64,000 nucleotides of DNA from a virus. The stretch is from positions 15,664-79,663 of the IMG/VR virus record IMGVR_UViG_3300026488_000025; one strand, given 5' to 3'. The notes under the pieces are model-generated. The model saw only the letters and a program-made list of their open reading frames with translations. It ran no database searches and was not told the DNA's origin. The position numbers were made by a program, and so were the translations under genes. Shown piece after piece: positions 34,999-60,850 of this stretch. Position 1 is the stretch's first letter, and the number at the start of each line of letters is the position of its first letter.

Positions 34999-36522
34999 TT
35001 AAAGTTTGATTGCTAGAATCTCATCGATTAATGCGTTTGAGTTTTTCCACATCTTCGGAATTACGCTTAACATCTTGTCCGAAAATCCTGAAACTTCCAG
35101 AATGTCATTAGATAATTTCATTGGTGTGTCACCGCCGTATCCTTGAAGATTCCAGAATAGTATCTTAACATTTGGGTTGATTTTTCTATATGCTGTTACT
35201 GCTTGTTTGAATGAACCTAAACTATTTGATTGCATATCTGTTAGGATAACAATTTTATCTACGAATGTTTTCGTTTTCACTAAATCTGCCATACTAGCAT
35301 TAAGATTTGTACCATATCCTTGTGTGTTTGTTCTCTTAATGAAATCGAACGGAGAACCACTGATATCCACTCTACGAGCATTGTCTGCCCATAAGTAACC
35401 TAATGTTTTGGTTTTATCTAATCCCACTAACATACTTGCCATTAAAATCTTACCGATTTTGAATGGGCTCATTTCTGTAGCACTTGAACCCCATCCTGAA
35501 CTACCCATTGAACCTGACTCATCTAGTAACAGTGCTACACTCTCACCTTCATCAACGATTGGGATATTCTTTGCTGAAATAATGAAACCTGCTTCGATAC
35601 CATCTAATAGTTCTTTTTGTAAGATTCTATCGAATGACATTGCTTCTACTGCTTCTGCTGCTTGAATAAATCTGAATGGAAGTACCATAGATTTACGACA
35701 CGCTTTCTCATTTCTGAATAACAATGAAAGTTTTGTAATCATTGCTTGTCTATCTGATTGGTCGAAACCATCAAGAGTTTCTAAGATATTTTTAAGGTTT
35801 TTAAGACCAGCCATATATCCTAGTTTTCCTTCGATTAACATACTGAAATAGTTTTGAGCTCTTGATTCACCAGTTGATTGAGCATTAACTGTTTGAGCAG
35901 TAACGATGTTCTCTAATGTTCCTTCGATTAATCTTTTGAATACATCTGTATCTTTTGCTTTACCTTTTGCTACAAGAGTTTCTGGATTTGGACGAGCAAG
36001 TTTAACGATGTCACGAAGTTTAATCTTACCTGAACCACCTGAATATTTCTTTAATTGATACTCATCAAATTTTGACTCAAATACATCTTTGATTGCTCTA
36101 CGAAGAGAATTTGGAATCATTTTACCTTTATTGCGAGTATTGAATAAAGCAACCATTTCCATAGCATCATCAGGTCTTACAATAGTTTTAGTAAGAGCAC
36201 TTCTTAAATAATCAGTACCTTTAACATTTTCTGCTAAGATAGCACCCATTATATGTGATACAGTTCTAAGATTACCTTCATTACGAACATAAACTGCTGC
36301 TTTTGCTGCGAACTCTGAATCGCCTTCAGCAACCATACCTATAATACGATTGATTCTATCTGATTCTGATTCGTAATATGAATTACCATTTACCATACTT
36401 GATAAGATAACTGAAGCTAACTCTTTACGAGCATCTTCATATTTGTATGCTACACCACCTGCTAAGTTTGTAGTTTCTGCTTTTTTCTCTGTTTGATTGA
36501 TTGTTTCGTTGAATTTTGCCAT
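34999..36522 (-). CDS. Ro60/Rsr-like TROVE + vWA RNA-binding protein (probable start 36522)
   Basis: TTNLAGG.AY, AVYVRNEGNLR, RPDD, FDEYQL.KY, A.LKNL.NI, VLPFRF, LLDESGSM, LTDMQ, GFSDK. Confidence 0.9.
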   Translation of the reverse strand: MAKFNETINQTEKKAETTNLAGGVAYKYEDARKELASVILSSMVNGNSYYESESDRINRIIGMVAEGDSEFAAKAAVYVRNEGNLRTVSHIMGAILAENVKGTDYLRSALTKTIVRPDDAMEMVALFNTRNKGKMIPNSLRRAIKDVFESKFDEYQLKKYSGGSGKIKLRDIVKLARPNPETLVAKGKAKDTDVFKRLIEGTLENIVTAQTVNAQSTGESRAQNYFSMLIEGKLGYMAGLKNLKNILETLDGFDQSDRQAMITKLSLLFRNEKACRKSMVLPFRFIQAAEAVEAMSFDRILQKELLDGIEAGFIISAKNIPIVDEGESVALLLDESGSMGSSGWGSSATEMSPFKIGKILMASMLVGLDKTKTLGYLWADNARRVDISGSPFDFIKRTNTQGYGTNLNASMADLVKTKTFVDKIVILTDMQSNSLGSFKQAVTAYRKINPNVKILFWNLQGYGGDTPMKLSNDILEVSGFSDKMLSVIPKMWKNSNALIDEILAIKL

Positions 36523-36603
36523 TGTGTTCTTTCCTTTGTTTAATTCTCTTACGAGATAATGTTGAAGTGTCCTCACTTCACCTTGTGTGTTCTTTTAGTA
36601 ATA

Positions 36604-36722
36604 TTAGATGAAATCTACCAAGATGTCATTCCCGAGGGAATGTTGTGGTTTGACCCACGAGTTCAAATTAAGAGTTTGTGTGCTGCAATCAGCGCGATGT
36701 AATCTGTGGTATGTAATTCTAA
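36604..36722 (-). ncRNA. Y-RNA-like ncRNA copy B
   Basis: TTAGA-ATTACA-TACCACAGA-TTACATC ... TCTTGGTA-GATTTCA-TCTAA; internal cloverleaf-like arms. Confidence 0.7.
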
Positions 36723-36744
36723 CATTACTAAAAGAACTTAGAAA

Positions 36745-51868: not shown

Positions 51869-51945
51869 TGGTACCCCCATCTGGACTCGAACCAGAAGTA
51901 TCATCCTTAGAAGGGATGTGCATTATCCAATTATGCTATGGAGGC
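51869..51945 (-). tRNA. tRNA-Arg(UCU)
   Basis: Cloverleaf; anticodon loop CTTCTAA; CCA. Confidence 0.9.
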
Positions 51946-51954
51946 AAATAAGTT

Positions 51955-52062
51955 AGAGATAAAAACGAAAAAGATGTAATTGGTCACCAGACTTCAATAG
52001 CCCGAATCGAACGGGCACTTCGTTTTCCAAATAAGCGATGTAATCTTTTTCTATAATTCTCT
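51955..52062 (-). ncRNA. Y-RNA-like ncRNA copy D with tRNA-like D and T arms
   Basis: AGAGA-ATTATA-GAAAAAGA-TTACATC ... TCTTTTTC-GTTTTTA-TCTCT; internal GCCCG-TTCGATT-CGGGC T-arm. Confidence 0.7.
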
Positions 52063-52098
52063 TAATTAATACTACTTTAATAATATCAATTAAAAGAA

Positions 52099-52174
52099 TG
52101 GTGCCGGTTAGAAGATTTGAACTCCTGGCCTATTGTTTACAAGACAATTGCTCTACCATCTGAGCTAAACCGGC
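52099..52174 (-). tRNA. tRNA-Thr(UGU)
   Basis: Loop CTTGTAA; CCA. Confidence 0.9.
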
Positions 52175-52231
52175 ATATTGAAATGGGCTTAATGAGTAAG
52201 ATATAGTTCTCTCTGCCATAATAGTGCTCAG

Positions 52232-52306
52232 AAGCGGGGGTTGGATTCGAACCAACGACCTCAAGGTTATGAGCCTTACGAGCTACCGGACTGCTACTAC
52301 CCCGCA
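52232..52306 (-). tRNA. tRNA-Met(CAU), initiator-like, no encoded CCA
   Basis: Loop CTCATAA; 1-72 mismatch; GCGGGG acceptor. Confidence 0.8.
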
Positions 52307-52334
52307 TCTCAACACTATATATGTTATTTATAAA

Positions 52335-52410
52335 TGGTTGCGGGAGAAGGATTTGAACCTACATCGTTTCGGCTTATGAGACCGATGAGTTACCAGTACT
52401 CTATCCCGCA
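52335..52410 (-). tRNA. tRNA-Met(CAU), initiator-like
   Basis: Loop CTCATAA; CCCGCAACCA 3' end. Confidence 0.85.
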
Positions 52411-53115
52411 ATATTTTTTGAATTTCTCAGTTTTCTCGACTGGTCAGCGTTACTTAAAGATACTGACTTACCCTACGATTGTTTATGATATAATTCTAAC
52501 CTTTAACAGTACAAAGCGTTAAGTTTCAGATATCCGAAGACCTTGTTCATAACGCTTTGTACTATTAAAAATACAAAAAAGTAATCTGTTATTGATTAAC
52601 CACGATACCTTATTCTTAATACTTCCTTAACGAATCGGAGATAAGGGTAACAAGTTTTTTACTCAAGGTTCAATAACTGTATTATCATTGCGACTCTTCA
52701 TCGACTAAATATTTCTACACTTCTCGTTTGTGCTTCAAATACATTGATTACTTTTTATGTCTTTCTTCTTTTGTAGTAACATTATAACATAGTGTTACTT
52801 AATTTTTGTTTAATAAATTGTGCTACATAAAGGTTTCGACCCTTTCAAATTCTCATAGAAATGTAACATATTGTTTACAATCAAATTTACTGGCACATTG
52901 TCAAGAGGTGTAAATAGATTATATTTTCAAGGACTGTCTAATCCTCTGCTCTATTGTATCAAATGTACGAGGAGAGTATCCACTTATAACCGTGACAAAG
53001 GCTACTAACAAAATACCTAGATACAGATATTCTTTTAGTAACTTTCTCTTTATATGTAGTATTATAACATACAAAGACTTAAAATATACTGAATTACTAA
53101 AAGAAGAGAAAAGAA

Positions 53116-55245
53116 TTACAGTAAATCGTTCCTCTCTTCTACCATCAGTACAAGCGACTCAAATAATTCTTCAGAACTTTTTTCCATCTTTTGTAGCGTT
53201 TCTTCTATACCAGGGTTGAATTTGTCTTTCATTCGCAAATTTATTGCCTCTTGTGCCTTCTCGTGGACATTTTGGTGGAACTTATTGATACCAGAAAAAT
53301 ATCTTGATTTACCGTACATTGTCTTACCTTCACCCAAGAACCATTTACCAAATCGGCAATCCGTGTGTTTGGACATAGTTTTATTTTCTGCTCCAAGGAT
53401 GGCATCATAAGCGTTTATTTTAAATATAAGATGCTCTATTTTTGTTAGAGAAACGATAATATCCTCAGAAATAACATTATTTCTTGCTGTATTATTGTTA
53501 TTCAGATTGCTTAGAACACTGATACGGTCATTAAGGTCTTCTGATACCGATGAAGCCTCACCAATAGATTTCATCATATTTTCTGTGCTTTCGTTCATTT
53601 CCGATGTATTTTGTTTAACCACATTAATACTAGCTTCTACATTTTTTGTAGCAGTCTGTGTTCTTTCTGCTAGTTTTCTTACCTCATCAGCAACAACAGC
53701 AAATCCTCTACCGTGTTCCCCTGCTCTTGCTGCTTCAATCGCTGCATTAAGTGCTAGTAAATTCGTTTGTTCTGAAATATCTTTAATAAGCTCAATAACG
53801 CTTGATATTTCATTTACTGATTCCTCTAGCTGCTGTGCAGATTCGGCTGTTCCTGTCATACCCTCTGATAATACCTGCAATGTATCTACCATCGTGTCTT
53901 TTGACGCAGTTAAAGAAGTAAAATCGTGTACTGCCTCTGTATTAAAATCATTTATTGTAGAAAGCTTAACCGTACTTTTTGAGAGAGCTTCTTTAATATC
54001 AGAAAGGTTATTAGTAGCTCCACCTGCCATTAAAGAATTTATACTAAGATTTAGTTCATTATCTTTTTGACCTAGTGCTAAATCTTTAGCTCTTTCTCTG
54101 ATTTCTTCATCTGATTTTGTTCTTTGTGTATCGGCTTCATTTAATGATGAGAATAAATTATTTATGCTTTGTTCTATTTCAGAAACCTCATCGGTACCAG
54201 TAACTACAATACTATTATTAAAATTATTAGAATCCTCTAAAATATTTTTCATACCCTCTATTCTAGTGATAAGGTTATTAGCAAATTTGAAACCTAGAAA
54301 AGACATCACTAGAGCAAATATTAGAGCTATTCCCATTTTTGTGAGCATCATCGTTAATAAATGTGATTTTTCTATGGCTGCATCTTTTTGGAGCACTTCA
54401 CCTAGAGTGATTTCTAATTCTCTAAGAGCATCAATCTTTCTCGTTATCGTCCTAAACCATTCACCTGGATTTGAGTCTAATGCAGTACCAGGCCCTCTTG
54501 CTAACAACATATTTCTCGTTCTCTCTACCTTGATATACTCTGGTGATATTTTGATGGAATCGAGAAGCTTTGTAGTCTCTGGTGTAGCTAGAGAACCGAA
54601 TTCTTTCAGGAATTTATTCTGCTCTGACACTAATACCACAAATTTTGAGAATGACTCTGTGCTGAATTGATTTTTTGTTAATGAACCCGTTACAACAGCT
54701 CTTTCTTTTCCTGCTAGTTCTTTTGAAGAGCTTAGATAACCTATCACGCTCATCTTTTTAATCGTTTCTGTATCTTTAGCTATGAATTTCGATAAGTTGA
54801 TAGCATCCAAATAAGTCCTATTCATAGTGCTAAAATATTGGACAACATCTTTCACTTCAATACTAAGGTTGTCTATACTGTTTCTTTTGTATGATATGTT
54901 ACTGTAAGACTGTAATGCTTTAGAGAATATCATCTTGCTGTCTTTATTAGGGAAATCAATATCTTTTACATCGTTGTAAGAAGAATCTACTTTGCTCCTA
55001 ATGTCTCGTATCTCTGACCTAAAATTTTTACCTTTTGAGCCTACGAAACCTGCAGAAGCACCTCTTTCTTGTTGTAGAAAATGTACGAGTTTGTTGATTT
55101 TGTTGTTTTCTGTGATTGTTTTTTCTAGTGTGGATATTGCTGTATAATCTCTGTATTCAGAAAATGTAAGGTAACTAAAACCTAATATAACAATAATTAC
55201 TGGTAGGACGGTGAGGGTTCTAAGTTTTGATGATATGTTTTTCAT
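53116..55245 (-). CDS. Methyl-accepting chemotaxis protein with NIT-like sensor and CZB domain
   Basis: Two TMs; LVH.LQQERG.S and KE.AGKERA (NIT); [37 protein letters not shown]; [15 protein letters not shown] (CZB). Confidence 0.92.
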
Positions 55246-55289
55246 ATTATGCTCTTTCTATTGATTTAACAATATTTATAGAGGCCTTA

Positions 55290-57006
55290 TCTTCATAAGG
55301 GCTTTTTTGAAACATCAGCAATTAAATCTGAATTAAGTTGTTTCTCACTTGGTTTTAGTTTTACTTCCTACTGACTGTTAAAGTAAGAATTTTTCATAAA
55401 ATAATCTATATAAGGTAATGTACACTTCCCTAAGTAAATTAATCTGCATTTTTTCAGCTTAACTAATTCAAAAATTTTACTTCTACGATGCCTCGAAAGA
55501 ACATCCTAAGATGCACTTGTGAAAACATTATAGAGAGTTTACGGACTTTTACCGCAGAAGATTGAACTTAATCAAAATCGTTACCTCGTGCAGACTCTAA
55601 CACACGATATGTTTTCTTATTGTTTTTAGTTGCAACATATTACAACAATAGCGTCCGACTCCACGCATCTTCGGACAAAGTTCTCTATTTTACGACTTAC
55701 CTTTTGTAGAGATAAAAGAGATTAATAAATTTCCAGTCATCGAATCTGGCACCCGTTGAATATACTAAATGCTACAAACATCGAGTAAATAATCAGGTTC
55801 GCCCACGCATTATAAACTTTTATAGATGTTGCCTACTCGGTGAGGATTATCACTACCTCTAGGTTGAATATCTCCAACTAGGTTCCGTTGTTTATTTTTA
55901 GGTCAAATCGTAAAAACCTTTGTTCTTTTTGACATTACATCGTTATCTATATCGGAACTAGACCCGAATCCCTCATCATTACAATGAGTACACTAAGTAT
56001 TTTGTGCTATATAGGTATTTAACATTTTCGATTAAATTAAAGGATTTGCACCTTTCTGTTCAGCCGCTTTTACCACAATTTCCCAGAAGGAATTGAACCC
56101 TCATAGCCACTTACTTGTTACTAAAAAATTTAATCTTCTATTTTTAGGTCTGGTTTCAAGATTCCTCTACACCCAATTACTACACCAATCTAAGGCGTAA
56201 CCCTCAACCCTATCAAGGTCGTTTCACATTATTTCGTTAATAGACACTTGCCAGCGATGCCGATTGTGAAGTCCTAGCCGTGAGGCGAGACAACCCAAGA
56301 CACTATCACTGGATGCCGTTATTAACTCAATAAAACTCTAACCATCCAGACTCCGATAGTTCCGCTACAATAACGGCCGTGGATTCGAACCTTAATAGAG
56401 TTTTATTGAATTAACATTGAATAACTATTATCTGTTCCACTTTATTCAAAAAGTTCAGCTGTGTTTCATCAGGTATTCTCAATTTTTTCAATTCGCAAAA
56501 CCAACTTCTATTTCCTTGTACTTCGGAATTTCTGTTGTTGTTTGATTAAAATATAAACAGTTCTTGAACATCATTTATACTTTCGACTTCTTTGAACTCG
56601 GATACTTCCTCTCTGTTCCTAAACCAAACGAGATTCGAACTCGTAACCTTCTCCGACCGTAGTGGGAAACGCTTTAACCATTTTAGCTTTTGGTGCTTTG
56701 TCTATTAATCAATTCTTACTGTGTATTTTGAGGTAATTAATCTCTAAATACTTTATAAAGATATAATAAATTTGGTAGTTTACATCTAGTCGAAATCCTC
56801 TTTCAAGGTACGAACAAGACAAAATTTATATCTTTATAAAGTACTCTATTAACTCAATAAAACCAACTTCCCAATTTCACTTTAGGAGCCATAACTAAGA
56901 TAGATGATGGTAAGTCATATCCCAAAGTTATGCTTTCTAGGCTACTTTATCGACAGCTATTTGAATCACCACGATTCCCTAGTACTGTTTGGTTTTATTG
57001 AATTAA
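55290..57006 (-). ncRNA. ORF-free island of multiple structured RNA modules, including tRNA-like elements
   Basis: No ORF of 60 aa or more; long bracketing stems; several T-loop hairpins; three tandem early promoters upstream. Confidence 0.55.
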
Positions 57007-57011
57007 CTCTC

Positions 57012-57262
57012 TTTATATGTAATATTATAACATAACCTTACTTAAAGTAAGATTAAATTCGATAAGAAACGCTCACATCTTGAACTTAATCAGATTCACT
57101 CATTTTGAGTAAATGACTCGGACTTACTTTCTTCTCTTATAGTACAATTATAACATAAAGTTACTTAAAAGTAACTGAAGTTTTTGATAAATCATAGAAC
57201 TTATAAAGAGAAAGTCTATATCCTCTTTATATGTAATATTATAACATAAGTAACCTTAGAGG
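57012..57262 (-). promoter_or_regulatory. Three tandem early promoters
   Basis: TATGTTATAAT motifs at about 57022-57035, 57146-57157 and 57237-57248. Confidence 0.7.
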
Positions 57263-57287
57263 CTACTTAACTTAGTAGCTTGTGGTA

Positions 57288-58973: not shown

Positions 58974-59053
58974 CTATTTCCTTTACGAGTATTATATCAT
59001 AAAAGTACTTAATAGGTGCTGTTGTACATTATGTCCTATTCCAATATACTTTG

Positions 59054-59126
59054 TCTAACTGGCAGGTAACGCTCCTGCTATCCCTTAGGCCCAAGCTAAG
59101 TGGGATGACTTTTTCCCTACAGCTAG
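59054..59126 (-). tRNA. tRNA-Pro(UGG), atypical T-loop, no CCA
   Basis: Loop CTTGGGC; T-arm GCAGG-AGCGTTA-CCTGC. Confidence 0.65.
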
Positions 59127-59147
59127 ACAAAATATACTATTTCTAAA

Positions 59148-59224
59148 TGGTGCTGATAGTAGGGTTCGAACCTACAGTCTCTTGATTACAAAACAAGGGC
59201 CTTATCCAGTTTAGCTATATCAGC
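59148..59224 (-). tRNA. tRNA-Thr(UGU)
   Basis: Loop TTTGTAA; CCA. Confidence 0.85.
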
Positions 59225-59234
59225 ATTTATATTT

Positions 59235-59308
59235 TGGTGGAGATAGAGGGAATCGAACCCTCGTTACTACATTGCAAGTGTAGTGTAATCCCGTTATACT
59301 ATATCCCC
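59235..59308 (-). tRNA. tRNA-Ala(UGC)
   Basis: Loop CTTGCAA; G3-U70; CCA. Confidence 0.88.
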
Positions 59309-59310
59309 AA

Positions 59311-59386
59311 TGGCGCCCACGGTTGGTTACGCTCCAACTCCTCTAGTTTTTCAGACTAGCGATTCTACTAAGTTATCTTCGTAGGC
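59311..59386 (-). tRNA. tRNA-Phe(GAA), atypical T-loop
   Basis: Loop CTGAAAA; T-loop AGCGTAA; CCA. Confidence 0.78.
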
Positions 59387-59396
59387 ATTTATATTT

Positions 59397-59470
59397 TGGT
59401 ACTCATACTAGGATTCGAACCTAGATTATCCGATTATCGGTCGAATGTTCTACCATTGAACTATACGAGC
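59397..59470 (-). tRNA. tRNA-Ile(GAU)
   Basis: Loop CCGATAA (C33); CCA. Confidence 0.8.
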
Positions 59471-59474
59471 ATAT

Positions 59475-59548
59475 TGGTTCGGATATGGAGAATCGAACTC
59501 CAACTGCTACTTCCCAAAAGTAGTGTGATACCATTTCACTATATCCAA
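59475..59548 (-). tRNA. tRNA-Pro(UGG)
   Basis: Loop TTTGGGA; CCA. Confidence 0.85.
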
Positions 59549-59551
59549 TTA

Positions 59552-59625
59552 TGGTGGAGACACGGAGAGTCGAACTCCGAACTCAACATTGCAAGTGTTG
59601 TGTAATCCCATTTTACTATGTCCCC
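59552..59625 (-). tRNA. tRNA-Ala(UGC)
   Basis: Loop CTTGCAA; CCA. Confidence 0.88.
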
Positions 59626-59629
59626 AATT

Positions 59630-59704
59630 TGGTTGTTCTTAGAAGATTTGAACTTCTGACCTATCCCTTATCAAGGGAGTGCTCTACCACTGAGCTAAAG
59701 AACA
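59630..59704 (-). tRNA. tRNA-Ile(GAU)
   Basis: Loop TTGATAA; CCA. Confidence 0.85.
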
Positions 59705-59709
59705 TTATT

Positions 59710-59784
59710 TGGTACTCGATAGGGGAGTTGAACCCCTCTCTCTGACTTGAAAAGACAGCGACCTTACCGATAGTCGAATCGAGC
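59710..59784 (-). tRNA. tRNA-Glu(UUC)
   Basis: Loop TTTTCAA; CCA. Confidence 0.82.
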
Positions 59785-59886
59785 ATATATTTTAACAATT
59801 TGAAGATAATTTTATGAAAGATAGAAATCTGAAGTTTCAAGTCTTTCAAGAAATTACTTCTCAAAAGACCTGTTTGAAGAGGTTCT

Positions 59887-59997
59887 TTAAGAAATAGTTT
59901 CCGTTTCGGGAATAAAGGCAATTTCTGCCGGTGTAAAGGCAATAATAGATTCAATAGTAATAGTTGTTTCAATAGTTTCGATTGTAATTGTTCTCAT
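59887..59997 (-). CDS. Ile/Thr-rich leader-like peptide 1 (36 aa)
   Basis: AAGGA SD; MRTITIETIETTITIESIIAFTPAEIAFIPETETIS. Confidence 0.55.
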   Translation of the reverse strand: MRTITIETIETTITIESIIAFTPAEIAFIPETETIS

Positions 59998-60058
59998 ATT
60001 ATTTCCTTTTTTGTTTTTTAATTTTATTTAATTATTTTATAGTCTTATATGACATTTA

Positions 60059-60133
60059 TGGTGGACCCACTAGGTATCGAACCTAGTTCTCTGTGTTAAA
60101 AGCACAGTACTTCACCATTAAAGTTTTAGGTCC
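60059..60133 (-). tRNA. tRNA-Lys(UUU)
   Basis: Loop CTTTTAA; CCA. Confidence 0.85.
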
Positions 60134-60137
60134 TTAA

Positions 60138-60213
60138 TGGTGTATCTGGAAGGAATCGAACCTTCGACCGGTAGGTTAAAAGCCCACTACTCTGACCGCT
60201 GAGTTACAGATAC
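60138..60213 (-). tRNA. tRNA-Lys(UUU)
   Basis: Loop CTTTTAA; CCA. Confidence 0.88.
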
Positions 60214-60342
60214 ATCTAAAAATAAGTTATTCGTTTATTTAAAGATGCATTCTAGGTTTATAACTATCTACCTAAACAACATCTATGATTTTTGCTATCT
60301 TCATAGTGTTTCCTTTTATTTTATTTGAGTTAGAATACTCTG

Positions 60343-60414
60343 CTCCGGGAGTCAGAATCGAACTGACCTTTGTATGATTAACAGTCACGCGCATCGCCTT
60401 GATGCTGTCCCGGA
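60343..60414 (-). tRNA. tRNA-Asn(GUU), no encoded CCA
   Basis: Loop CTGTTAA; TCCGGGA acceptor. Confidence 0.75.
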
Positions 60415-60435
60415 GCACAATATTCTAAAATTATA

Positions 60436-60509
60436 TGGATGAGATACCAGGGCTCGAACCTGGGATAATCGAGTCAAAGTCGATTGTAATGCCACTTTAC
60501 TATATCTCA
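60436..60509 (-). tRNA. tRNA-Gln(UUG)
   Basis: Loop CTTTGAC; CCA. Confidence 0.85.
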
Positions 60510-60518
60510 ACATTTTTA

Positions 60519-60602
60519 TGGTGTAGACTGGTGGACTCGAACCACTCCCCTAAAGACAAGATTTACAGTCTTGCTGCCGTATCCGAACGACTTTCAATCT
60601 AC
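60519..60602 (-). tRNA. tRNA-Tyr(GUA)
   Basis: Loop CTGTAAA; variable arm; CCA. Confidence 0.82.
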
Positions 60603-60606
60603 ATTT

Positions 60607-60681
60607 TTACCAAATTGTCATTATCATTGGTAATACTTTTATTGCTAAACCTAACACTATTAATTCTACAATCAATCTCAT
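60607..60681 (-). CDS. Small hydrophobic peptide (24 aa) between tRNAs
   Basis: AAGGA SD; MRLIVELIVLGLAIKVLPMIMTIW. Confidence 0.4.
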   Translation of the reverse strand: MRLIVELIVLGLAIKVLPMIMTIW

Positions 60682-60696
60682 TAAATTCCTTTATTC

Positions 60697-60772
60697 TGGC
60701 GGTCTATATCGGTTCTGACCCGATTACCTTTCCCGTGACAAGGGAATGCTCTTCCAATTGAGCTAATAGACC
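60697..60772 (-). tRNA. tRNA-Asp(GUC)
   Basis: Loop TTGTCAC; T-loop GTCAGAA; CCA. Confidence 0.82.
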
Positions 60773-60775
60773 TTT

Positions 60776-60850
60776 TGGTGATTCCTAGGGGAATTGAACC
60801 CCTCTCTGCGAATTGAAAGTACGCTGACCTTACCGATAGTCGAAGGAACC
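60776..60850 (-). tRNA. tRNA-Glu(UUC)
   Basis: Loop CTTTCAA; CCA. Confidence 0.85.

What the first reader, a model, noticed from the sequence alone, without database searches (positions are those of the whole stretch)
55290..57006. 1.7 kb ORF-free island of stem-bracketed ncRNA modules behind three promoters
Three tandem early promoters (57012-57262) point into a region with no long ORF. Modules are closed by long stems. ATTAACTCAATAAAAC...GTTTTATTGAATTAA occurs twice (56321-56414 and 56848-57006) around unrelated GC-richer cargo. ACTTTATAAAGATATA...TATATCTTTATAAAGT brackets about 56750-56842, and TAGAGAGTTT...AAAGTTCTCTA brackets 55531-55687. Re-use of the same bracket with different inserts suggests a processed small-RNA array (inference: RNase III-type release).
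Basis: partly seen in the sequence, partly recalled or inferred. Interest (0 to 1): 0.72.

Follow-up and report, generated by a model that had tools for sequence, protein, structure and literature searches.

The report
Phage island of structured non-coding RNAs
A giant T4-like phage from a hydrothermal vent uses its longest gene-free stretch, about 1.7 kb behind three copies of its standard promoter, for a row of folded RNAs (tRNA look-alikes and long-stemmed modules) that resemble known phage stable RNAs and Y RNAs but whose job is unknown.

Summary
The observation mostly holds. Window 55246-57287 is the longest ORF-free stretch (2,042 nt) in a phage genome of about 331 kb. Every other large gap in that genome holds RNA genes. 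Three copies of the phage's standard promoter cassette fire into it on the minus strand.

Three of the four "brackets" are real: stems of 19-21 uninterrupted pairs, where shuffles give 0.01 stems of 16 or more. Two of them share identical arms around unrelated cargo. The fourth bracket is not above chance.

New here:
- a tRNA-like gene (Rfam 42 bits) whose anticodon loop is replaced by a C(UACG)G tetraloop and which lacks CCA;
- a second orphan T-arm;
- a canonical T-loop inside module A, arranged in the order of a circularly permuted tRNA (YrlA order);
- a strand-specific GC-rich hairpin.

The phage also carries 33 tRNAs, a tmRNA, a Ro60 (TROVE) gene and four Y-like RNAs. A related 224-kb phage has different but same-style stem-closed T-arm modules, plus a GOLLD RNA, in its ORF-free zones.

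Best reading: an operon of stable structured RNAs. RNase III release is plausible but untested. There are no expression data, and these particular modules are not conserved in the relative. This scan has noted similar RNA arrays beside Ro60-like genes in other phages. This island lacks this genome's Y-RNA handle.

The parts
57222..57281 (-). Promoter cassette P3: upstream hairpin, extended -10 TGTTATAAT and conserved leader start
   Evidence: 1 mismatch to the 27-nt consensus; nhmmer E 1.4e-14; 7-bp upstream hairpin
57145..57186 (-). Promoter cassette P2, a variant with an intact extended -10 and a divergent leader
   Evidence: nhmmer E 0.0012; alignment A1
57007..57074 (-). Promoter cassette P1. 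The predicted transcript start lies about 10 nt before module B, and no SD or ATG follows.
   Evidence: 0 mismatches; nhmmer E 7.4e-12. Most of the other cassettes in the 79.6-kb record are followed by AAGGA and ATG within about 10-30 nt; those before the two tRNA clusters (53045, 61380) are not.
56848..57007 (-). Module B: 19-bp closing stem with the same arms as A, and a 122-nt multibranched cargo
   Evidence: (z -4.0)
56746..56846 (-). Module C: 21-bp closing stem (18 perfect pairs plus G.U extension) and a 59-nt cargo
   Evidence: (z -4.0)
56620..56696 (-). tRNA-like RNA X. It keeps the acceptor, D-arm (GG), variable loop and a perfect T-arm. The anticodon loop is replaced by 10 nt that close as C(UACG)G. 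No CCA is encoded.
   Evidence: Rfam RF00005 at 42.2 bits, E 4.7e-7; fold; missed by default ARAGORN; 30 of 33 true tRNAs encode CCA
56320..56416 (-). Module A: 21-bp closing stem. The cargo runs: short linker, T-loop GGUUCGAAUCC, 6-bp capped hairpin, 5-6-bp hairpin with an 8-nt G-rich loop. This is the order of a permuted tRNA (YrlA order).
   Evidence: (z -6.2 on minus against -3.65 on plus)
56243..56317 (-). Hairpin E: GC-rich (up to 55%), imperfect, 75 nt, directly 3' of A
   Evidence: -27.8 kcal/mol and z -2.5 on the minus strand, against z -0.66 on plus; GC profile
56086..56102 (-). Orphan canonical T-arm (5-bp stem, loop UUCAAUU) with no recognisable rest of a tRNA
   Evidence: Besides X, one of only four 5/5-pair T-arms (eight at 4/5 or better) that lie outside ARAGORN-called tRNAs in 662 kb of sequence counting both strands. 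No acceptor partner found.
55531..55687 (-). Module D: weak stem-bulge-stem with GUCCGAAG on its 5' strand. The bracket is not significant.
   Evidence: z -1.8. Motif TCCGAAG occurs 19 times in 662 kb, two of them in the island; this is a post hoc count.
55272..55310 (.). End of the island: a hairpin whose T-run lies on the plus strand, then TATAAATA (T4 late-promoter type) before the chemoreceptor gene at 55245
   Evidence: Sequence read. Conserved at about 60% identity in the related phage (window 55343-55246 against L214 7888-7988).

Best explanation
The island is a dedicated non-coding transcription unit on the minus strand of a T4-like jumbo phage of about 331 kb.

How it most likely works:
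1. Three tandem copies of the phage's standard sigma-70-type promoter cassette drive a transcript of about 1.7 kb. The promoter matches are shown; transcription itself is inferred.
2. The transcript folds into separate modules: B, C, tRNA-like X, A, hairpin E, a region with an orphan T-arm, and perhaps D.
3. The modules are cut apart and survive as small stable RNAs (inferred).
4. X and the T-arm elements offer tRNA-type handles for RNase P/Z-like processing and for proteins that bind the tRNA elbow (inferred).
5. The 19-21-bp terminal helices of A, B and C lock both ends of each module. They act either as RNase III cutting sites or as protection against exonucleases (inferred).
6. A and B carry the same 16-bp helix around different cargo. 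This suggests a constant handle read by one factor, with variable cargo.

The likely roles are tRNA mimicry or decoying, or service as adaptor RNAs in the style of Y RNAs. This fits a phage that also encodes Ro60, four Y-like RNAs, a tmRNA and 33 tRNAs.
For: Non-coding status:
- No ORF, recoded ORF or SD-led small ORF is present.
- This is the longest ORF-free gap in 331 kb, and the next-largest gaps are tRNA clusters, Y-like RNAs or the tmRNA.

Promoters:
- P1 and P3 match a cassette present 46 times in the genome. Elsewhere it usually runs into SD+ATG; here it does not.

Structure:
- Stems A, B and C lie far beyond chance.
- In the whole 331 kb, four of the five stems of 16 bp or more with a loop over 50 nt are A, B, C and the Y-like RNA beside the Ro60 gene; the fifth (16 bp, 276-nt loop) looks like chance.
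- The strand is the promoter strand. The minus strand folds better: -80.2 against -52.1 kcal/mol and z -3.1 against -1.9 for 266 nt; A z -6.2 against -3.65; E z -2.5 against -0.66.
- The one internal mismatch in the A/B handle is U.G on the minus strand and A/C on the plus strand.

tRNA-type content:
- X scores 42 bits as a tRNA. It keeps A14, A15:U48, G18G19 and the T-loop, but has a C(UACG)G cap instead of an anticodon loop.
- Strict T-arms with all five pairs occur outside ARAGORN-called tRNAs only five times in 662 kb, and two of these are in the island.

Related phage G003 (224 kb):
- Its chemoreceptor gene is about 60% identical in nucleotides.
- It has ORF-free zones with six stems of 17-26 bp closing 79-155-nt cargo, and shorter-stemmed (11-bp) closed modules.
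- Four of these modules hold one or two T-arms, one in the same T-hairpin-linker-hairpin order as A.
- It also has a GOLLD RNA at 110.7 bits.

T4 precedent: T4 rnaC, a stable RNA in the T4 tRNA cluster, also carries a canonical T-arm.
Against: - There is no expression or end-mapping evidence of any kind.
- None of modules A, B, C, E or X has a sequence homologue in the one related genome found or in any collection searched. No covariation test is therefore possible, and rapid turnover could also mean weak constraint.
- Rfam assigns nothing except X.
- The T-stem in A has only 2-3 of 5 pairs.
- The orphan T-arm region and X have unremarkable folding energies.
- No intrinsic terminator on the minus strand closes the unit.
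- The island lacks the handle shared by this genome's four Y-like RNAs.
Confidence: 0.55

Rival explanations
1. Evolutionary debris in a hyperplastic region. On this view the island consists of decaying tRNA genes, tRNA-tRNA junctions and duplicated hairpins left by recombination between promoter cassettes, and has no function of its own.
For: - The modules are not conserved in the related phage G003, whereas tRNAs, the Y4 element, promoters and the chemoreceptor gene are.
- X has a C2/U71 mismatch, A8, no CCA and no anticodon.
- A has a weak T-stem, and the orphan T-arm has no partner.
- The flanking 190-aa gene is an orphan among 5.8 billion proteins.
- Tandem promoter arrays also occur before an unrelated gene in a relative.
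Against: - The genome is 91-97% covered by ORFs, and no other gap over 300 nt lacks an RNA gene.
- Three perfect 19-21-bp stems, a perfect T-arm and an exact C(UACG)G cap are not what drift leaves behind.
- The A and B arms are identical over 33 nt.
- Folding is strand-specific.
- Three promoters are kept in front of the island.
Confidence: 0.2
2. A DNA-level element. On this view the inverted repeats act as cruciforms or as recombination, replication-origin or packaging signals, or as ends of small mobile elements. The RNA would be irrelevant.
For: - The same terminal inverted repeat flanks two different inserts.
- Two other long inverted repeats in the genome bracket promoters at the DNA level.
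- The region is AT-rich and lies behind promoters, as at T4 origins (my own knowledge).
Against: - The extra pairs and the internal mismatch are G.U only on the transcribed strand.
- Cargo folding is strand-specific.
- The arms occur nowhere else in 331 kb.
- The interiors are unrelated and there is no clear target duplication, so this is not MITE-like.
- Cumulative GC skew runs straight through the region.
Confidence: 0.08
3. A long structured 5' leader that controls the chemoreceptor gene at 53116-55245.
For: No minus-strand intrinsic terminator separates the island from the gene, so early transcripts may read through.
Against: - The gene has its own TATAAATA box and SD directly upstream.
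- That box and the adjoining hairpin are what is conserved in the relative. There the chemoreceptor gene is preceded by protein genes, not by such an island.
Confidence: 0.05

Closest known systems
Phage T4 stable RNAs rnaC and rnaD (species 1 and 2 RNAs) in the tRNA cluster
   Same: - Both are small structured RNAs of unknown function on the tRNA strand of a T4-type phage.
- T4 rnaC (139 nt) holds a canonical T-arm and folds with z -4.6, like X and the orphan T-arm here.
   Different: - No sequence similarity was seen.
- Here there is a separate 1.7-kb unit with its own triple promoter.
- Here there are 19-21-bp closing stems and an anticodon-less tRNA mimic.
- The T4 RNAs directly follow tRNA-Arg.
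Bacterial and phage Y RNAs of the YrlA/YrlB type with Ro60 (Rsr) (Chen et al. 2014, PMC4201824; bioRxiv 10.1101/312249; Thermus phage phiLo, PMC12135203)
   Same: - The 5' and 3' ends pair in a stem that closes a cargo.
- Module A has the YrlA order: variable linker, T-loop, capped acceptor-like hairpin, D-like hairpin. This amounts to a circularly permuted tRNA.
- The phage encodes a TROVE protein.
   Different: - The Rfam YrlA model gives no hit on A; the best hit in the island is 9.5 bits, elsewhere.
- A has no GNCGAA motif.
- A's T-stem is weak.
- The island lies 20 kb from the Ro60 gene.
- The island lacks the handle of this genome's own four Y-like RNAs.
GOLLD and ROOL large RNAs of phages near tRNA islands (bioRxiv 10.1101/2024.12.08.627333)
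   Same: - They occupy the same niche: ORF-free stretches beside phage tRNA arrays.
- The related phage has a GOLLD-like RNA with an embedded tRNA in its equivalent zone.
   Different: - No GOLLD or ROOL match appears in the island or the window.
- The GOLLD 3' signature is absent from all 331 kb.
- The island is a string of separate modules, not one ornate fold.
PeSLs, the composite stem-loop plus early-promoter cassettes of T4-type phages (PMC2839356, PMC4122927)
   Same: The three promoters are copies of a cassette repeated 46 or more times. In these three copies it has a small hairpin just upstream of an extended -10.
   Different: - The hairpin is absent or shifted in many other copies.
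- The cassette sequence is unrelated to coliphage PeSLs.
- A role in shuffling was not tested.
RNase III processing hairpins of phage T7 early RNA
   Same: Long hairpins between functional units of one early transcript. (This comparison rests on my own knowledge.)
   Different: - Here the stems are perfect, 19-21 bp, and enclose 55-122 nt of cargo. They are not simple bulged hairpins between mRNAs.
- Cleavage is untested.

Membership tests
tRNA (Rfam RF00005), for element X at 56620-56696 | Covariance-model score above the gathering score | tested here: met
   42.2 bits against 29, E 4.7e-7
tRNA (Rfam RF00005), for element X at 56620-56696 | Seven-nt anticodon loop presenting an anticodon | tested here: not met
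   The loop is 10 nt and folds as two extra pairs capped by UACG. Default ARAGORN rejects it.
tRNA (Rfam RF00005), for element X at 56620-56696 | 3' CCA encoded, as in this phage's working tRNAs | tested here: not met
   30 of 33 phage tRNAs encode CCA. X is followed by GGAAC.
YrlA Y RNA (Rfam RF02553), for module A | Covariance-model match | tested here: not met
   No hit on A. The best hits in the phage are tRNA-tRNA junctions at 16-21 bits against a gathering score of 69. There was also no hit at E<=10.
YrlA Y RNA (Rfam RF02553), for module A | Closing stem, then variable linker, T stem-loop, capped acceptor-like stem and D stem-loop, in that order | tested here: met
   Fold and reading of 56320-56416, compared with the layout in bioRxiv 10.1101/312249
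YrlA Y RNA (Rfam RF02553), for module A | Conserved T and D stems and loops | tested here: inconclusive
   The T-loop is canonical, but the T-stem has only 2-3 of 5 pairs. The D-like loop has G residues but not the A14/G18G19/A21 pattern.
YrlA Y RNA (Rfam RF02553), for module A | GNCGAA(N)G motif near the 5' end; gene next to rsr | tested here: not met
   The motif is absent from A. The TROVE gene lies at 34999-36576, 20 kb away.
This genome's own Y-like family (four copies beside Ro60 and in a tRNA cluster) | Shared handle GAAUUAYA, 8-9 nt, then (U/A)UACAUC | tested here: not met
   There are exactly four matches in the genome, and none is in the island.
GOLLD (RF02032) and ROOL (RF03087) | Covariance-model match; GOLLD 3' signature | tested here: not met
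   No match. The signature is absent from the 331 kb but exact in the relative. The quick genome search is insensitive, since it missed the relative's GOLLD.
T4-type stable RNAs of tRNA regions (rnaC-like) | Non-tRNA structured RNA with a T-arm, on the tRNA strand near tRNA clusters | tested here: met
   X and the orphan T-arm lie between tRNA clusters at 51869-52410 and 59053-60850, on the same strand. T4 rnaC has a T-arm.
T4-type stable RNAs of tRNA regions (rnaC-like) | Accumulates as a discrete stable RNA in infection | not testable with these tools
   No cultured phage and no usable RNA data
RNase III-processed array | Double-stranded stems of about two helical turns flanking the released units | tested here: met
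   19, 21 and 21 uninterrupted pairs
RNase III-processed array | Cleavage within the stems | not testable with these tools
   No end mapping is available, and no phage RNase III gene was found.
MITE or other small mobile element | Terminal inverted repeats around a similar interior, in several copies, with target duplication | tested here: not met
   The interiors of A and B are unrelated. The arms occur only at A and B in 331 kb.
CRISPR repeat mimic (RNA anti-CRISPR) | The arm equals a host CRISPR repeat | tested here: not met
   No array with this repeat start occurs in 185,579 species genomes. The scan was for exact matches only.
PeSL-type promoter cassette, for P1-P3 | Repeated composite of stem-loop and early-type promoter | tested here: met
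   46 copies. There are 6-8-bp hairpins upstream of P1, P2 and P3.

The most novel reading that the evidence does not exclude
A and B may be two members of an undescribed class of phage RNP RNAs. Each would carry a constant, sequence-specific 16-bp double-stranded handle joined to interchangeable cargo. One cargo is a circularly permuted tRNA mimic.

Together with the anticodon-less tRNA mimic X and the orphan T-arm, the island would then be an early-expressed battery of tRNA-elbow decoys or adaptors. Such RNAs could titrate or redirect host tRNA-binding enzymes or tRNA-targeting defences. They might work with the phage's Ro60.
Probability: 0.12. Interest if true: 0.75.

Novelty: new variant of a known kind. 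Interest (0 to 1): 0.55.

Why it matters
Phages with large tRNA sets often carry unexplained structured RNAs beside them: T4 rnaC and rnaD, Y RNAs, GOLLD and ROOL. None of these has a settled function.

This island packs several such RNAs behind one strong promoter block:
- a tRNA body whose anticodon has been neatly capped off;
- a permuted tRNA-like module;
- two modules that reuse one helix around different cargo.

The same phage also has Ro60, Y-like RNAs and a tmRNA. If the RNAs are expressed, the island offers a compact set of natural constructs. They could be used to ask what phage tRNA mimics bind and how stem-closed RNAs are released and stabilised. The island also points to a vent phage lineage, probably infecting Sulfurimonas-like hosts, with an unusually rich RNA toolkit.

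Tried and rejected
Coding explanations
- Alternative genetic codes (TAG=Q, TGA=W, TAA=Q) give no long ORF.
- No small ORF with an SD was found.

RNA family and motif searches
- Relaxed ARAGORN gave only weak, unconvincing cloverleaves apart from X.
- Rfam at E<=10 gave only X plus noise.
- The YrlA, GOLLD and ROOL models gave nothing in the island.
- X has no close paralogue among the 33 phage tRNAs.
- I looked for Ro60-type motifs. GUCCGAAG sits on the 5' strand of weak module D and UCCGAAG at 56527. TCCGAAG is enriched (2 seen against 0.06 expected), but the pattern was chosen after seeing the data, so I keep it only as a lead.

Ideas about the brackets
- CRISPR-repeat mimic for the A/B arm: no array found.
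- 'Module C holds a decayed promoter' rested on 25 of 37 matches by eye. A profile of 46 cassettes finds nothing in the cargo of B or C even at E 50, so I rejected it.
- No paralogues of the island or its arms exist elsewhere in the 331 kb.
- No phage RNase III or RtcB gene was found.

Searches for relatives
- No match in the phage collection.
- Flanking proteins and the capsid protein found no close relatives in IMG/VR.
- The flanking 190-aa protein is an orphan.
- A 15-mer scan with the arm sequence was unspecific.
- Promoter-pattern scans found only other pieces of the same phage and short contigs of relatives without the island.
- The relative G003 has no sequence homologue of the island.

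Sequencing runs and tools
- One DNA holder was listed, probably the source sample, and no RNA holder was listed. I did not lay reads.
The contigs of the four closest chemoreceptor homologues could not be inspected that way.

Full report
**Setting**

The window is bases 15664-79663 of a 79.6-kb IMG/VR virus record. Two further records from the same metagenome belong to the same phage. They are 146.5 and 105 kb, carry the same promoter cassette and have the same 33% GC. The three lengths sum to within 0.5 kb of a 331,651-bp contig on which the window's proteins are recorded.

The phage has a T4-type Gp23 capsid protein that is only about 25% identical to any cultured phage. Almost all genes lie on the minus strand. 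Its chemoreceptor gene is closest, at 35%, to Sulfurimonas proteins, and the only run holding the DNA is a hydrothermal-vent metagenome.

The RNA toolkit is large:
- 33 tRNAs covering all 20 amino acids;
- a tmRNA;
- a TROVE (Ro60) gene at 34999-36576;
- four elements sharing a Y-RNA-like handle.

**Checking the observation**

The stretch 55246-57287 has no ORF of 50 aa or more in any frame. It has none under TAG or TGA recoding and no SD-led ORF of 12 aa or more. At 2,042 nt it is the longest such gap in 331 kb. The next gaps (916, 474, 462, 396 nt and so on) are tRNA clusters, the Y-like RNA beside Ro60, or the tmRNA region.

The 'three early promoters' are copies of a 27-nt cassette with an extended -10, TGTTATAAT, and a conserved leader start. 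The cassette occurs 18 times in the 79.6-kb record holding this window and 46 times in the genome, nearly always on the minus strand. It usually runs into AAGGA and ATG within about 10-30 nt; the copies before the two tRNA clusters are exceptions. P1 (57008-57034) and P3 (57222-57248) are near-exact matches and P2 is a variant. After P1 comes no SD or ATG, only module B.

Stems A, B and C have 21, 19 and 21 uninterrupted pairs on the minus strand. Shuffles give 0.01 stems of 16 or more. A and B share 16-17 identical nt on each arm around unrelated cargo. The fourth bracket (55531-55687) is not above chance.

**What else is in the island**

- Rfam finds one tRNA-like gene, X (56620-56696, 42 bits). 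It keeps the acceptor stem, a D-loop with GG, a 5-nt variable loop and a perfect T-arm. Its anticodon loop is 10 nt and closes as two pairs capped by the extra-stable UACG tetraloop. It also lacks the CCA that 30 of 33 phage tRNAs encode. It has no close paralogue.
- I scanned all 662 kb (both strands) for strict T-arms: a 5-bp stem closed by G-C, with loop TTCRANN. Only five perfect ones lie outside ARAGORN-called tRNAs: X; a second one at 56086-56102; the Y-like element at 52000-52016; one in a 130-nt tRNA with an insertion; and one in a coding region.
- Module A contains a canonical T-loop. It reads: closing stem, short linker, T-loop, 6-bp capped hairpin, 5-6-bp hairpin, closing stem. This is the order of a circularly permuted tRNA, as described for YrlA.
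- Directly 3' of A lies a 75-nt GC-rich hairpin, E.

**Strand and chance**

All signals point to the promoter strand.
- The minus strand of 56160-56425 folds at -80.2 kcal/mol (z -3.1), against -52.1 (z -1.9) for the plus strand.
- A has z -6.2 against -3.65.
- E has z -2.5 against -0.66.
- The only internal mismatch of the A/B helix is U.G on the minus strand and A/C on the plus strand.
- In the whole genome, four of the five stems of 16 bp or more with a loop over 50 nt are A, B, C and the Y-like RNA next to Ro60; the fifth is a 16-bp stem with a 276-nt loop that looks like chance.

**Relatives**

No collection holds a sequence homologue of the island.

An alignment of chemoreceptor homologues led to a 224-kb viral contig, G003 (locus L214). 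Its chemoreceptor gene is about 60% identical in nucleotides. It shares tRNAs, the promoter-bracket hairpin and the handle-bearing Y-like element of the window's tRNA cluster.

G003 has no homologue of A, B, C, E or X. But its ORF-free zones hold the same style of object:
- six stems of 17-26 bp closing 79-155 nt of cargo, plus two modules closed by 11-bp stems;
- four of these modules with one or two T-arms, one in the T-hairpin-linker-hairpin order of A;
- an acceptor/T-arm minihelix with CCA;
- a GOLLD-like RNA with an embedded tRNA, at 110.7 bits and E 4e-30.

G003 also has a TROVE gene, 100 kb from its RNA zone, so distance from Ro60 says little. This phage has no GOLLD by model or by signature.

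**Interpretation**

The best reading is an operon of small stable structured RNAs, analogous to T4 rnaC and rnaD and to Y RNAs. T4 rnaC proved to carry a canonical T-arm when folded here.

How the modules are released is open. The stems are long enough for RNase III, but X and the T-arm make RNase P/Z-type punctuation equally likely. The stems could also simply protect the RNA ends.

The identical arms of A and B, with not one compensated difference in 33 nt, argue for either a sequence-specific handle or a recent duplication.

Membership in YrlA, in this genome's Y-like family, in GOLLD or ROOL, in MITEs and in CRISPR-repeat mimics was tested and not met.

The main rival is decay in a fast-turnover region. 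The non-conservation in G003 and the imperfections of X and A favour it. The compactness of the genome, the perfect stems, the tetraloop cap and the triple promoter argue against it.

**Limits**

- The modules have no relatives, so there is no covariation test.
- Earlier notes of this scan describe Ro60-like genes with arrays of stem-closed tRNA mimics in other phages. I used them as leads only. I checked the TROVE domain and the handle count myself.

Noticed in passing
L214 2247-2748 (G003:69284-69785), related 224-kb phage: GOLLD-like RNA at 110.7 bits, E 4e-30, below Rfam's gathering score of 150. It has an embedded tRNA at 2310-2379 and an exact GOLLD 3' signature. It sits directly upstream of the homologue of this window's Y-like element.
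   Followed up: partly
window 34999-36576 (-), plus 34821, 36696, 36795 and 52037: TROVE/Ro60 gene (Pfam 1.4e-20) and exactly four elements with one shared handle. One of them (51955-52062) has a T-arm and is conserved, handle included, in the related phage (L214 2753-2901), where a 23-bp stem closes it.
   Followed up: partly
window 53030-53105 and G000:6851-6927: Long inverted repeats bracket intact promoter cassettes. In the second case the downstream arm overlaps the start codon. Read-through transcripts would therefore hide the SD and start while promoter-proximal transcripts would not, as for T4 genes e and soc. The 53030 arms equal the outer arms of the Y-like RNA at 36589-36737.
   Followed up: partly
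L145 18547-18676 (G002, minus strand): A 130-nt tRNA (Rfam 43 bits) with a perfect 7-bp acceptor stem, T-arm and CCA, but about 58 extra nt between the anticodon region and the T-arm. ARAGORN misses it.
   Followed up: no
L145 19382-19739 (G002) and G003:181437-181818: Both phages encode a tmRNA. In G003 it lies next to the TROVE gene.
   Followed up: no
L214 7609-7648: Minihelix made of a 7-bp acceptor stem and a T-arm, ending in ACCA (a tRNA 'top half'), just upstream of the relative's chemoreceptor gene.
   Followed up: no
window cassettes, alignment A1: An invariant TAAG lies 11 nt upstream of the -10 hexamer in all 15 aligned cassettes. That is too close for a -35 element and matches the spacing of the T4 MotA box, so the cassettes may be activator-dependent (middle-type) rather than purely early.
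   Followed up: no
L205 700-1110 (Ga0164313 contig): A relative carries four tandem promoter cassettes, with the same leader/anti-leader hairpin as after P3, in front of an AAA-ATPase gene. Tandem promoter blocks therefore seem to be a movable unit in this lineage.
   Followed up: partly
window 52499-52572 (-): A 23-bp hairpin with a 28-nt loop lies in the leader of the first tRNA operon, between its promoter and tRNA-Met.
   Followed up: no
window 53116-55245 (-): Full-length NIT-MCP-CZB chemoreceptor behind a TATAAATA box. Four metagenomic homologues at 43-48% identity, and a homologue in the related phage G003 (49% to one of them), stand apart from the Sulfurimonas group at about 35%. The gene therefore seems to be held by a phage lineage.
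   Followed up: partly
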